A stretch of DNA of 64,000 nt, from NCBI RefSeq assembly GCF_009914755.1, contig NC_060939.1, one strand, 5' to 3'. The stretch's first letter is position 1. Each line of letters starts with the position of its first letter. The notes below the pieces were generated by a model. That model saw only the letters and a list, made by a program, of their open reading frames with translations, did not search any database and had not been told where the DNA came from. Positions 30,401-34,301 of the stretch are shown here, one piece after another. This stretch comes from the human T2T-CHM13v2.0 reference genome, Homo sapiens. The translations under genes were made by a program, and so were the position numbers.

Positions 30401-32007
30401 GGCAGTTCAGAAAGGGTCTCTGTGCCATGCTAAGGGATCTGAACCTCATTCTGAAAGCTGCAGGGGTCGGTAAGAGAGACTGAAGAGTTTAAAGGAGAGA
30501 GAGGCATGTGGCACACTGCATTTCGGAAAGCTGTGTCTGTGTAGGGAGGGCTGGCAGATCAGCAGTCTCTGCACATCGCAGATAAGACGGAGGCACAGGA
30601 GAGATTCATGGCAGAGGGATGAGGGCACTGGCACTCACCCTCAGGTGGACGAGCTCAAATCTGGAGGCTGGGGGACACTTGAAGGGGGGGTGGGGGTGTG
30701 GTGAGGGAGAGTGGGGAGTGTGGACATCACCCTGGTTCTGAATGAACTAGGGGTGGCTGCCATTCCCTGAGAGGACACCGGGAGAGACAGGTGGAAGGGG
30801 TGGAGGTGGGTGGGAGGTGTGTGGAGGCAGCCAGGTTGTGCTGTGACTGGAGCCGGGAGTGAGGTGTCCAGAGGCAGATCAGACACCGAGGGACAATGGA
30901 AGCAGGGTTTGGAAAACCGGCGCGTGCAAAGGGCACACTCACACCAACCCCAGCATCCTGAGGGGCTGGGAAAGAGAAGGTCAAAGAAAACCCGGAGAAA
31001 GTGTTGCCAGAGGATGAAGGAGGCGGGAAGTCTATGGCCTAAGGGGTACTTCAGGGTCATGCTCAGGTCACTGACAGAGCAGAGAGAACGTGCCGTTGGA
31101 CCCGCTCCAGGAGACATGGGGACATACTGCAAGGGTCTCCCTGCCAGGGTCCCGTCGGGATTCAGTCCTGCACAGCCCCGTGGATTGTGGGCAGGCCTTG
31201 CCCACCTCCTGGCCATGTGATCTTCGGATGTGCCTCTTGTGCTGAAGAAAAAAAAATGCACATGTCCACTCCCCAGCAGGCCCCGCTCTGAACGGGCCCC
31301 CAGCACTCCATCCATGAAAGCTGCAGGGGCAACAGCAGGTGCCTGTTCTACCACGCTAGCACGCTCCACTTTCTCTCCTCCACTGATTCTTATTTCTCCC
31401 TAATGGACTGCACTCTTCAAAACCAACTTACCCAAGGACAGCTTTTCCAAGGGGACTTGTCAAACTCCACAGGCAGCAACTGGTTTGTTCCTTTCCAAAG
31501 GGCAGTAGCCATCACCTTCAACAATACTGCAACTAACATCCACCTCTGTCCAGTCCTTCTTATTTTAATCCTACAGCAGGAACCCCAATTGACAGAGGAG
31601 GACATCAAAACTGAGAGAGGTCTAGGGCTGCAAAACTAGAACCCATCAGGAACCAGAACTCCAGTCCCCTCTGCCGGTGGTCCCATCCATCCTCCTTCCG
31701 TCTGACACCAAGGCTTCCTGAGTGGTAACCACCATGGCTGCTGGAGCAGAGGAAGTGGCCGTTGCCTTAGAACCAGGCAGGTGGGGAAGGGGACACATCA
31801 AATACCCAGAAGAAAAGTGACTTCAAAGTCCTCCCCAAATTGAGTGCCCTCCAGAAATTCTCTCACGAAGAGGCTGCAGCTGACATTCACAGGGATGTTG
31901 TGTCTGAATGCGGGTACATCAGGAAGGGAACAAAAGAGAGGGAAGAAAGCCTGGTTGAAGGCAGGGGTCTTTCAAGTCCCCTCGAGGCAGACTCAAGAGC
32001 AAAGCAT

Positions 32008-32144
32008 GGCACACTGGATGGGCGTTCTGCTTCTCTTTAAAGAGCATGGATTTATCCATACCATGTGACATGAATGAAATGAGGAGTTTTCAGGGCTGCC
32101 AACCTCTTGGTTAAGGTTCTGTGTAGTATATTTCTCCTACAATA
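32008..32144 (+). ncRNA. Box H/ACA scaRNA of the U109/SCARNA18 family (intronic paralog or retrocopy)
   Basis: Hairpin-H-hairpin-ACA architecture: H box ACATGA 32068-32073; ACA 32139-32141; stems CACA/TGTG, TGGAT/ATCCA, AGGAG/CTCCT, AACCT/AGGTT. The 3' half GGAGTTTTCAGGGCTGCCAACCT...AAGGTT...TAGTATATTTCTCC closely matches my recollection of SCARNA18 (U109). Confidence 0.85.
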
Positions 32145-32626
32145 GAAAAGGAAAAATGACATCTGAGGTTAACAATGTATCTGCAGTGCAAGGCCCAGTG
32201 ACTGTCAATAATGGACGCTGAATAACTAAGCAATGGTGGATTGCATGAATTTTCATATAAAACTGCTCCTATACATCGCTTTGAGTGTCTGGGTCACGCC
32301 TTATCCTTATAGTGTAATGTGAGCGGAGAGTCTAGCTTGAATATTTTCCCACTTAGCTAACTTGCCATCTCACAACTATTTGCTGAGTAACCCTTGCTTC
32401 CTCTTAATTCTCTGGGGCCTCCTCGACATATATTTAGGCAGGAGGTGAAGGGCAGGACTCAGGGGGCCACTTTCTGCAGGCATAGGAGGTTGGGCTTCAT
32501 GCAGACCACAATCAAATCCTTGCTCTGCTGCTTTGCTTGCTGGGTGGCCCTGGGCAAATCACTTAACCTTTTTGAGCCTGGGTGTCCTATTTCCAAAACC
32601 AAGTCAGAAATAAGAAAGTTACTATG

Positions 32627-32936
<310 letters not shown>

Positions 32937-34301
32937 GGCTTCGGTAGAGTGCCTGGCACATGGAGGGGCTCAAGGGAATGAAGTTCTTAATATTTTTAAT
33001 TGATGTCTTGGAATCTGCATCCATGTCTAAGGAAGAGACAGGCAAGAGAATTTTTGTCCTGTCTGGGACAAGAATGATCATTTGGGATGGTGGAGGCATC
33101 ACTCTTACAGAGTGAACTTTGATTGAGGGGGAGAGAAGCTGTTTAGTTTGAAAATATATATGTATATATTCAAACGGTATAGAAAAACTGTAGAAAGTAA
33201 TGCTGAACAAAATCTTGTTGGGTGTAAATACAGAGAAAAATCACAATTTTTAATTGTGGCACCTCTGCCAGGGGAACAGTAGGATCAAGGAGGAATTTTA
33301 TGCCATTTTAAATGAAGTCGTAAAGTGTTGTGAGGGGATGACGTAAAATAAAGGATTTTCTGGGCCAGAAGGCTCTTAAAGATGCCCTGGGGACTCTAAC
33401 CCATCCCTTCATTTGGGATCCTTTGTCATGTCTCTTAGCCGCAGCATGTTTCCTCCAGGGGGTGCCCAAGGGGACATTTGCCTCCCCACTCCCAGAGAGA
33501 AGGTCTCTCCGGGGCCACGTGTGAGCCAGGCAGAAGGTGGGAACCAGACCCAGGGAGCCCCAGTTCACCTCTCCAGGAAGGAGGGAGTGGCCACCCTCAT
33601 CCAACACCGATGCGGTTCCAGCCATCTGGGGGCTGAAGAATGTCATTGCAAGGTGGCCATATCAGAGCTCTCTTGGTACAGGGACAGGAACACAAACCAG
33701 GCAGGCTCAGAAGAAGCAGGGGGTGGAGTGAGGAAACAGAGACAACTAGTGTAGACGGACCTGAGAAAGTTTGCAAAGAGCTGGCGAGAGAGAAATCGCT
33801 GAGGGGAATATGGACTTCTCTGAATCCTGTTTTCTACAGGAGAGGGTCATCTTCGGTGATTTGGGCTCATCTCTCCATTGAGTGGTCCTCTCTAGAACAC
33901 ACTGGGTGTGCGGGAAATACACCCTCCCACAGCAACGCAGAGATGAGCAGGACCCGCATCCTGTGCCTGGCCATGGTCTGGGGACGGGGTGCTGAAGCCG
34001 AACGCATAGAGATAATGGTGGCTGAATATAGGGGGCACCCTTCTGCAGGTATGTCCAGGACGCCGAGGCAGGGTGAGAGGCCCAGGCTCGTTGTATAGTA
34101 GGGAGCTCCAAAATTGGGATGGGGGAACCAGCAAAGGCTCTATAGCCATGAGCACCATAGAGAAGTAGTCCTCTCTGCCCACAACTTTTCACTAGGTCCA
34201 GTTCAACCAACAGCATACATATATGTATTGCCCTGGGTTTTAATTGCTTTGGTTTCTGGGATTTTGAGTGTTAAGGATTTCAGAATGCAGCATTATCTTA
34301 G

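What the first reader, a model, noticed from the sequence alone, without database searches (positions are those of the whole stretch)
32008..32144. Intact U109/SCARNA18-family H/ACA guide RNA hidden in ST8SIA2 intron 1, with a preserved U1 snRNA-targeting pocket
Seen: two foldable hairpins, a hinge H box (ACATGA) and a terminal ACA, in the same orientation as the host gene. In the 3' hairpin, CAGG (32091-32094) and AGTAT (32125-32129) pair with U1 snRNA 5'-AUACU[U6 A7]CCUG-3' on either side of U6. The pocket sits 14 nt from the ACA box, the canonical H/ACA geometry. Established: U109/SCARNA18 is the predicted guide for U1 psi6, which lies in the segment that pairs with 5' splice sites. Inference: this is a retroposed copy (A-rich tract follows at 32145-32156) that could be processed from the intron. 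A U1-modifying guide would then be coupled to the developmentally restricted neural expression of ST8SIA2.
Basis: partly seen in the sequence, partly recalled or inferred. Interest (0 to 1): 0.85.

Follow-up and report, generated by a model that had tools for sequence, protein, structure and literature searches.

The report
Decayed U109 scaRNA retrocopy in ST8SIA2
This is a real but old and worn copy of the U109/SCARNA18 guide RNA, already annotated as a pseudogene; it keeps the short U1-matching motifs but has lost most of what a working copy needs, so it is ordinary.

Summary
The element is real. Window 32002-32144 (+) matches Rfam snoU109 at 69.6 bits (cut-off 43, E 1e-10). It lies in sense in ST8SIA2 intron 1. 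The U1 pairing holds against a U1 gene taken from the same genome.

It is neither hidden nor intact. RefSeq already lists exactly this span as pseudogene LOC124903615 (hub annotation). Among 7 genomic snoU109 hits it ranks sixth. Its 5' hairpin scores 15.0 bits against 70.4 for the chr5 gene. The loop AG that I take for the CAB box reads GG. Two upper-stem pairs are broken and neither is compensated. The predicted fold ties up CAGG: P(unpaired) is 0.087, against 0.94 and 0.93 in the two conserved copies.

Keeping 9 guide bases at about 16% divergence is expected by chance about one time in five. No target-site duplication is detectable.

Best reading: an ancient, neutrally decaying U109 retrocopy (confidence 0.85). 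Expression could not be tested with these tools.

The parts
32002..32144 (+). Whole U109/SCARNA18-like H/ACA element, the same span as RefSeq pseudogene LOC124903615
   Evidence: RF01233 at 69.6 bits, gathering score 43, model positions 1-134 of 134. Sixth of 7 genomic hits.
32004..32067 (+). 5' hairpin, strongly degenerate. The lower stem GCAUGG/CCAUGU is kept. Insertions lie in the 5' pocket strand and the upper stem is altered.
   Evidence: The 5' half scores 15.0 bits, E 1.9, against 70.4 for chr5. Identity to chr5 is 77% with 20 gap columns. The lowest-energy fold is a nearly continuous stem with no open pocket.
32068..32073 (+). H box ACAUGA (fits ANANNA) in a lengthened hinge
   Evidence: Aligned to the consensus H box. 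The hinge carries a 4-nt insertion relative to the model.
32083..32086 (+). Lower stem of the 3' hairpin, 5' strand (GGAG). It pairs with CUCC at 32134-32137.
   Evidence: Rfam structure line. These bases are also paired in the lowest-energy fold.
32087..32094 (+). 5' strand of the 3' pocket, UUUUCAGG. Its last 5 nt, UCAGG, are complementary to U1 nt 8-12.
   Evidence: 4 Watson-Crick pairs plus 1 G-U. Predicted to be paired within the RNA itself: P(CAGG unpaired) 0.087.
32095..32124 (+). Upper stem and terminal loop of the 3' hairpin, damaged. Two pairs are broken (C.A and C.C). The loop reads UUGGUU where the conserved copies read CUAGUA and ACAGUA.
   Evidence: Mismatch marks (v). Alignment. 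Energies.
32125..32129 (+). 3' strand guide element AGUAU, complementary to U1 nt 1-5
   Evidence: 5 of 5 pairs. It is followed by 14 nt up to ACA, counting from 32125.
32139..32141 (+). ACA box, followed by 3 nt (AUA)
32145..32156 (+). A-rich tract GAAAAGGAAAAA (9 A in 12 nt), possibly a decayed poly(A) tail
   Evidence: All 7 copies, the chr5 gene included, are followed by A-rich sequence. No target-site duplication was found.

Best explanation
This is an ancient, neutrally decaying retrocopy of the U109 (SCARNA18) H/ACA scaRNA. It landed in sense orientation in what is now ST8SIA2 intron 1. It is transcribed passively as part of the pre-mRNA intron and most likely degraded with it. It does not assemble into a stable Cajal-body H/ACA RNP and does not contribute to U1 psi6. 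The match of its guide bases to U1 is inherited from the parent and has survived by chance, not by selection.

Shown here: family identity, rank among the paralogues, which elements are kept and which are damaged, and the predicted misfold.

Inferred: retroposition as the origin, old age, and lack of processing and function.
For: 1. Family identity: RF01233 at 69.6 bits against a cut-off of 43.
2. Rank: sixth of 7 genomic hits. The scores are chr5 159.1, chr1 155.9, chr18 139.9, chr2 101.2, chr7 90.5, this copy 69.6 and chr16 56.5.
3. Half-model scores: 15.0 and 52.7 bits here, against 70.4 and 83.4 for the chr5 gene.
4. Divergence from chr5: the 5' domain has 51 matches, 15 mismatches and 20 gap columns. 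The 3' domain has 52 matches, 10 mismatches and 1 gap column.
5. Longest branch in the tree of the 6 full-length copies: 0.33+0.12, against 0.16-0.17 for chr2 and chr7 and 0.079 for chr18.
6. Both substitutions at paired upper-stem positions break the pair (U-A to C.A, C-G to C.C). Neither is compensated.
7. The canonical fold of the 3' hairpin is -7.2 kcal/mol. An alternative at -15.0 sequesters CAGG. P(CAGG unpaired) is 0.087 here, against 0.943 for chr5 and 0.934 for chr1. The same alternative helix appears in the full-length lowest-energy and centroid folds.
8. The only AG in the 3' terminal loop of chr5 and chr1 reads GG here. A3G4 of the CAB box are the crucial bases for Cajal-body localisation (PMC2172171, passages).
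9. Chance survival of 9 guide bases at about 0.83-0.84 identity per site is about 0.2 (my arithmetic).
10. RefSeq calls the locus a pseudogene (hub annotation). U109 retroposons are documented (PMC1687206; PMC1802619).
Against: - The H box, the ACA box, the lower stem GGAG/CUCC, all 9 guide bases and the 14-nt spacing are intact. The sequence alone therefore does not exclude a minimal H/ACA RNP.
- The 3' domain is less diverged than the 5' domain (84% against 77%, 1 against 20 gap columns). That could reflect some past constraint.
- The element is in sense orientation in an expressed intron.
- Thermodynamic folds ignore dyskerin, Nop10 and Nhp2, which can impose the canonical fold.
- My placing of the U109 CAB box at the 3'-loop AG is an inference from position and conservation. 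I did not see a published annotation of it.
- The retroposition hallmarks are weak: no target-site duplication and only a 12-nt A-rich tract.
- No expression, CLIP or cross-species data could be consulted.
Confidence: 0.85

Rival explanations
1. One reading: a working intron-encoded H/ACA guide. It would be processed from ST8SIA2 pre-mRNA and direct dyskerin to U1 U6, coupling U1 psi6 supply to neural ST8SIA2 expression.
For: - The H and ACA boxes, the lower stem, 5+5 bp of guide complementarity to U1 around U6-A7, and the 14-nt spacing are all present.
- Sense orientation in an intron (hub annotation).
- U109 is the listed guide for U1 psi6 (PMC7960923).
Against: - The 5' hairpin is barely recognisable: 15.0 bits, E 1.9.
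- The upper stem next to the pocket is weakened by two uncompensated mismatches, and the pocket is predicted closed.
- The 3'-loop AG is lost, so Cajal-body targeting is doubtful (PMC2172171).
- Two conserved full-scoring copies (chr5, chr1) already exist. Weber argues that selection maintains those two.
- Survival of the guide bases is within chance expectation.
- RefSeq labels the locus a pseudogene.
Confidence: 0.06
2. A stable but non-canonical H/ACA RNP. The element would accumulate at a low level in ST8SIA2-expressing cells. Lacking a CAB signal, it would sit in nucleoli or nucleoplasm as an orphan RNA with no target or a different one.
For: [quoted passage not shown]
- scaRNAs with altered CAB boxes relocate to nucleoli rather than disappear (PMC2172171).
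Against: - Neither hairpin shows an open pocket in the predicted folds.
- Overall fold stability is not better than shuffles: z -1.52.
- There is no expression evidence.
- No paper mentions the locus: searches for 'LOC124903615' and for 'snoU109' together with 'ST8SIA2' each returned 0 papers.
Confidence: 0.06
3. Not a retrocopy but a DNA-level duplicate, arising by segmental duplication or gene conversion from another U109 locus.
For: - No target-site duplication is detectable.
- Weber 2006 notes that some distant U109-type copies spread by segmental duplication.
Against: - A 361-nt query spanning the element and its flanks matched elsewhere in the genome only within and just beyond (up to 12 nt past) the snoRNA-homologous part, on chr5 and chr1. 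No flanking homology was found at that sensitivity.
- An A-rich tract follows the 3' end directly.
- Loss of a recognisable target-site duplication is expected at this divergence.
Confidence: 0.03

Closest known systems
SCARNA18 (U109) and its conserved second copy U109B
   Same: - Same Rfam family, RF01233.
- Same hairpin-hinge-hairpin-tail layout, with the H box and ACA box at homologous positions.
- Identical guide bases (U)CAGG and AGUAU, the same lower stem GGAG/CUCC, and the same 14-nt spacing to ACA.
   Different: - 69.6 bits, against 159.1 and 155.9.
- The 5' hairpin has several indels and scores 15.0 bits against 70.4.
- The hinge is lengthened.
- Two upper-stem pairs are broken.
- The loop AG reads GG.
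- The pocket is predicted closed: 0.087 against 0.94 and 0.93.

That the chr5 hit is SCARNA18 and the chr1 hit is U109B in UCHL5 is my inference. It rests on score rank, on chromosome (PMC1802619 table; PMC1687206) and on recall. No tool here named the genes.
snoRNA/scaRNA retroposons (snoRTs, Type 1) of Weber 2006; H/ACA retrogenes of Luo and Li 2007
   Same: - A dispersed, intronic, sense-oriented copy of an H/ACA RNA followed by an A-rich tract.
- U109 is a named 'relatively successful' source.
- Sister copies on chr18 and chr2 show clear target-site duplications: 10 of 10 and 14 of 15 by eye.
   Different: - No target-site duplication is detectable here: 479 of 500 shuffles reach the observed best match.
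- The tail is short and interrupted.
- This copy is more diverged than the four U109-related sequences in the Luo and Li table (U109b-e on chr1, 18, 16 and 2). That table lists neither this chr15 copy nor the chr7 copy.
- Weber's Figure S1 and the supplements could not be seen, so they may list it.

Membership tests
Rfam RF01233 snoU109 (sequence and structure family) | Covariance-model score at or above the curated gathering score (43 bits) | tested here: met
   69.6 bits, E 1e-10, full model 1-134. The genome-wide E is 3.5e-8.
Functional box H/ACA guide RNA | H box (ANANNA) in the hinge, and ACA 3 nt from the 3' end | tested here: met
   ACAUGA at 32068-32073. ACA at 32139-32141, followed by AUA. 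The real 3' end of any RNA is unknown.
Functional box H/ACA guide RNA | Two hairpins, each with lower stem, open pseudouridylation pocket and upper stem | tested here: not met
   - 3' hairpin: the canonical fold is -7.2 kcal/mol and an alternative is -15.0. P(CAGG unpaired) is 0.087, against 0.94 and 0.93 in chr5 and chr1.
- 5' hairpin: it folds as a nearly continuous stem.
- This is a thermodynamic prediction only. Proteins could remodel the fold.
U1 psi6 guide (U109 function) | Bipartite complementarity flanking U1 U6-A7, with the pocket 14-16 nt from ACA | tested here: met
   AGUAU pairs with U1 1-5 (5 of 5 pairs). UCAGG pairs with U1 8-12 (5 pairs, one a G-U). The spacing is 14 nt. The U1 sequence came from L011.
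H/ACA scaRNA (Cajal-body class) | CAB box (consensus UGAG, A3G4 crucial) in the terminal loops | tested here: not met
   - The 3' loop reads UUGGUU, where chr5 has CUAGUA and chr1 has ACAGUA.
- The CAB rule comes from PMC2172171.
- Caveat: assigning the U109 CAB box to this AG is my inference. An AG remains near the 5' loop (AAAGAG), and its status is unclear.
Functional SCARNA18 paralogue | Purifying selection, shown by compensated stem changes or cross-species conservation | tested here: not met
   - 2 of 2 substitutions at paired upper-stem positions break the pair, and 0 are compensatory.
- This copy has the longest branch among the 6 full-length copies.
- Cross-species conservation could not be tested. 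No mammalian genomes are held here.
Functional SCARNA18 paralogue | Accumulation as a discrete RNA bound by dyskerin | not testable with these tools
   No expression or CLIP data are available here. Searches for 'LOC124903615' and for 'snoU109' together with 'ST8SIA2' each found 0 papers.
Type-1 snoRNA retroposon (snoRT) | snoRNA sequence at a non-parental locus, a 3' poly(A) tail, and flanking target-site duplications | tested here: inconclusive
   - Non-parental locus with unique flanks.
- The A-rich tract has 9 A in 12 nt.
- No target-site duplication: best local match 5.5, shuffle mean 6.8, and 479 of 500 shuffles reach the observed value.

The most novel reading that the evidence does not exclude
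Despite its decay, the copy is excised from ST8SIA2 intron 1 in developing neurons as a stable H/ACA RNP without a CAB box. Its inherited pocket would then add a tissue-restricted supply of U1 psi6 guide activity outside Cajal bodies, or would act on another RNA carrying a U1-like 5' motif.
Probability: 0.04. Interest if true: 0.6.

Novelty: already known. Interest (0 to 1): 0.12.

Why it matters
As it stands, little. This is one more decayed member of a documented family of U109 scaRNA retrocopies, and the reference annotation already flags it as a pseudogene.

If it were processed and active, it would be a tissue-restricted source of a guide for a pseudouridine in the U1 segment that reads 5' splice sites. 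That would be of interest for neural splicing. The damage to the 5' hairpin, the upper stem and the loop motif makes this unlikely.

The practical lesson is that preserved guide bases in an H/ACA pseudogene are weak evidence of function. Nine bases survive by chance about one time in five at this divergence.

Tried and rejected
- Folding significance. The full element folds at -40.6 kcal/mol but z is only -1.52, with 16 of 200 shuffles as good. Foldability adds nothing beyond the model hit.
- Target-site duplication. None was found above chance within about 75-90 nt on either side.
- Flank homology to parental loci. A 361-nt query matched only chr5 (73% over 131 nt) and chr1 (77% over 83 nt), within and just beyond (up to 12 nt past) the snoRNA part. 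No evidence for a longer Type-2 or Type-3 retroposon or for a segmental duplication.
- Parent assignment by tree. Only the chr1+chr18 pair has support (86/82). The position of the chr15 copy is unresolved. By eye it shares ATTTCTCC and GT(A/T)AAGG states with chr5 rather than chr1, which is a weak hint of chr5-lineage origin.
- Literature on the locus. Searches for 'LOC124903615' and for 'snoU109' together with 'ST8SIA2' each found 0 papers. 'SCARNA18' with 'U1 snRNA' and 'pseudouridylation' also found 0 papers.
- PMC8178906 and PMC6298559 held nothing on U109.
- Dating by primate or mammalian synteny was impossible, because no other eukaryote genome is held.

Full report
**What is there.** Window 32002-32144 on the + strand matches the Rfam model snoU109 (RF01233) over its whole length. 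The score is 69.6 bits against a gathering score of 43, with E 1e-10 in a 2.2-kb scan. The hub annotation shows that RefSeq lists exactly this span as pseudogene LOC124903615, found by cmsearch. It lies inside ST8SIA2 intron 1 and on the same strand. So the element is real and is a member of the U109 sequence family, but it is not hidden.

All are where it said:
- CAGG at 32091-32094 and AGTAT at 32125-32129.
- ACATGA at 32068-32073, aligned to the consensus H box.
- ACA at 32139-32141, followed by three bases.
- 14 nt (32125-32138) between the last upper-stem pair of the Rfam structure and ACA.
- GAAAAGGAAAAA at 32145-32156.

I took the U1 5' end from a U1 gene of the same genome (RF00003 hit L011). 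AGUAU pairs with U1 nt 1-5. UCAGG pairs with nt 8-12, one pair being a G-U. U6 and A7 are left free. The review PMC7960923 (Table 1 and the U1 section) lists U109 as the guide for human U1 psi6, citing Gu et al. 2005, which I did not see.

**Place among its relatives.** The model finds 7 hits in the genome at E of 0.001 or better:

| Copy | Bits |
|---|---|
| chr5 | 159.1 |
| chr1 | 155.9 |
| chr18 | 139.9 |
| chr2 | 101.2 |
| chr7 | 90.5 |
| chr15 (this copy) | 69.6 |
| chr16 | 56.5 |

- The search scores only the best candidates, so 7 is a lower bound.
- I take the chr5 hit to be SCARNA18 and the chr1 hit to be U109B in UCHL5. This rests on rank, on the chromosomes given in PMC1802619 (table passage) and PMC1687206, and on recall. 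No tool named them.
- Weber 2006 (PMC1687206, passages) describes U109 as a relatively successful retroposon source. [quoted passage not shown]
- The Luo and Li table lists four U109-related sequences, on chr1, 18, 16 and 2. It lists neither the chr15 nor the chr7 copy, presumably because these are too diverged for their megaBLAST search.

**How intact it is.**
- Scoring the halves separately gives 15.0 bits (E 1.9, not significant alone) for the 5' half and 52.7 bits for the 3' half. The chr5 gene gives 70.4 and 83.4.
- Against chr5, the 5' domain has 51 matches, 15 mismatches and 20 gap columns. The 3' domain has 52 matches, 10 mismatches and 1 gap column.
- In a maximum-likelihood tree of the six full-length copies, this copy has the longest branch: 0.33+0.12 changes per column, against 0.16-0.17 for chr2 and chr7 and 0.079 for chr18. 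I left chr16 out because its 5' half is Alu-derived. Only chr1+chr18 is supported (86/82).
- In the 3' upper stem, both substitutions at paired positions break the pair, giving C.A and C.C. Neither is compensated (mismatch marks).
- The 3' terminal loop reads UUGGUU, where the two conserved copies read CUAGUA and ACAGUA. Its only AG is therefore lost. The CAB box (consensus UGAG, A3G4 crucial) sits in the terminal loops of H/ACA scaRNAs, and altering it sends them to nucleoli (PMC2172171, passages). That this AG is the U109 CAB box is my inference.

**Folding.**
- The chr5 and chr1 3' hairpins fold by minimum free energy into the textbook H/ACA shape, with an open pocket.
- The window copy does not. 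The changes from GGUUGAG to GGUUCUG let CAGGGCU pair with GGUUCUG, giving -15.0 kcal/mol against -7.2 for the canonical fold.
- The ensemble probability that CAGG is unpaired is 0.087 here. It is 0.943 for chr5, 0.934 for chr1 and 0.895 for chr18.
- The same alternative helix appears in the full-length lowest-energy and centroid structures.
- The whole-element fold is not better than shuffles: z -1.52, with 16 of 200 as good.
- These are thermodynamic predictions. H/ACA proteins could impose the canonical fold.

**Is the preserved pocket more than chance?** At about 83-84% per-site identity in the 3' domain, nine specified bases all survive with probability of about 0.2. That figure is my arithmetic. 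I compared the five lower-scoring copies (by eye; the chr7 3'-strand row is a misplaced regex match and was not used):
- chr15 keeps 9 of 9 guide bases.
- chr7 keeps 8 of 9, the one change being a C-to-U that still gives a wobble pair.
- chr18, chr2 and chr16 each have one or two changes in AGUAU.

This spread is what neutral decay predicts.

**Origin and age.**
- The flanks are unique. A 361-nt query found only the chr5 and chr1 snoRNA regions elsewhere in the genome.
- An A-rich tract follows the 3' end, as it does in all seven copies.
- No target-site duplication is detectable: 479 of 500 shuffles reach the observed best match. The chr18 and chr2 copies show clear ones (by eye).
- Retroposition is therefore the likeliest origin, by analogy with the family, but it is not proven for this copy.
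- The divergence is about 15-20% plus many indels, and this copy has the longest branch in the family. That points to an insertion many tens of millions of years old, probably not primate-specific. This is a rough inference, and no other mammalian genome could be consulted.

**Verdict.** This is an old, decaying U109 retrocopy, already annotated as a pseudogene. It keeps the short inherited guide and box motifs. It has lost a recognisable 5' hairpin, a sound upper stem, the loop AG and a predicted open pocket. The proposed coupling of U1 modification to ST8SIA2 expression has no support here and cannot be excluded without expression data. I give it about 4-6%.

**Papers: what I saw.**
- PMC1687206: passages.
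- PMC1802619: passages, including part of the table.
- PMC7960923: passages, including Table 1.
- PMC2172171: abstract and passages.
- bioRxiv 10.1101/807008: one methods passage showing that GENCODE v19 carries a 'snoU109' family.
- PMC8178906 and PMC6298559: nothing relevant.
- Gu et al. 2005 and Richard et al. 2003: not seen, cited through the papers above.

Noticed in passing
L007:1501-1632 (- strand; chr16 copy): Only the 3' hairpin of U109 is left. The 5' part of the hit is the end of an Alu with a 12-A run. The first 8 nt downstream of the element equal the first 8 nt downstream of the chr5 gene. This copy therefore seems to derive from a 3'-extended chr5 precursor, and was either truncated by the Alu or fused to it.
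   Followed up: partly
L003:1501-1635 (+; chr18 copy): A clean 10-of-10 target-site duplication flanks it. It shares chr1 (U109B) character states and groups with chr1 in the tree (86/82). It looks like a retrocopy of U109B rather than of the chr5 gene. Its ACA reads AUA and its guide AGUAU reads AGCAU.
   Followed up: partly
L005:1501-1644 (+; chr7 copy): A 90.5-bit U109 copy with an insertion of about 8 nt in the 5' hairpin. Like the chr15 copy, it is absent from the Luo and Li 2007 table of U109-related sequences. It keeps AGUAU and ACA, and has UAGG in place of CAGG.
   Followed up: no
L001:1501-1572 (- strand; chr5 gene, 3' half): The 3' half of the chr5 gene gives a weak, sub-threshold hit to the Drosophila PsiU1-6 scaRNA model RF02665 (16.9 bits, E 0.062). 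This fits a shared U1 psi6 guide function but is not significant.
   Followed up: no
window 32628-32919 (+): An Alu element, seen as two sub-threshold Metazoa_SRP hits (32.7 and 43.0 bits) and mir-1268/mir-3135-like hits. It coincides with the NCBI-masked stretch 32623-32966.
   Followed up: no
literature (PMC1802619 against PMC1687206): The two 2006 papers disagree on direction. Luo and Li count the U109 gene itself among snoRNAs 'encoded by retrogenes', whereas Weber treats U109B in UCHL5 as the retroposon of U109.
   Followed up: no
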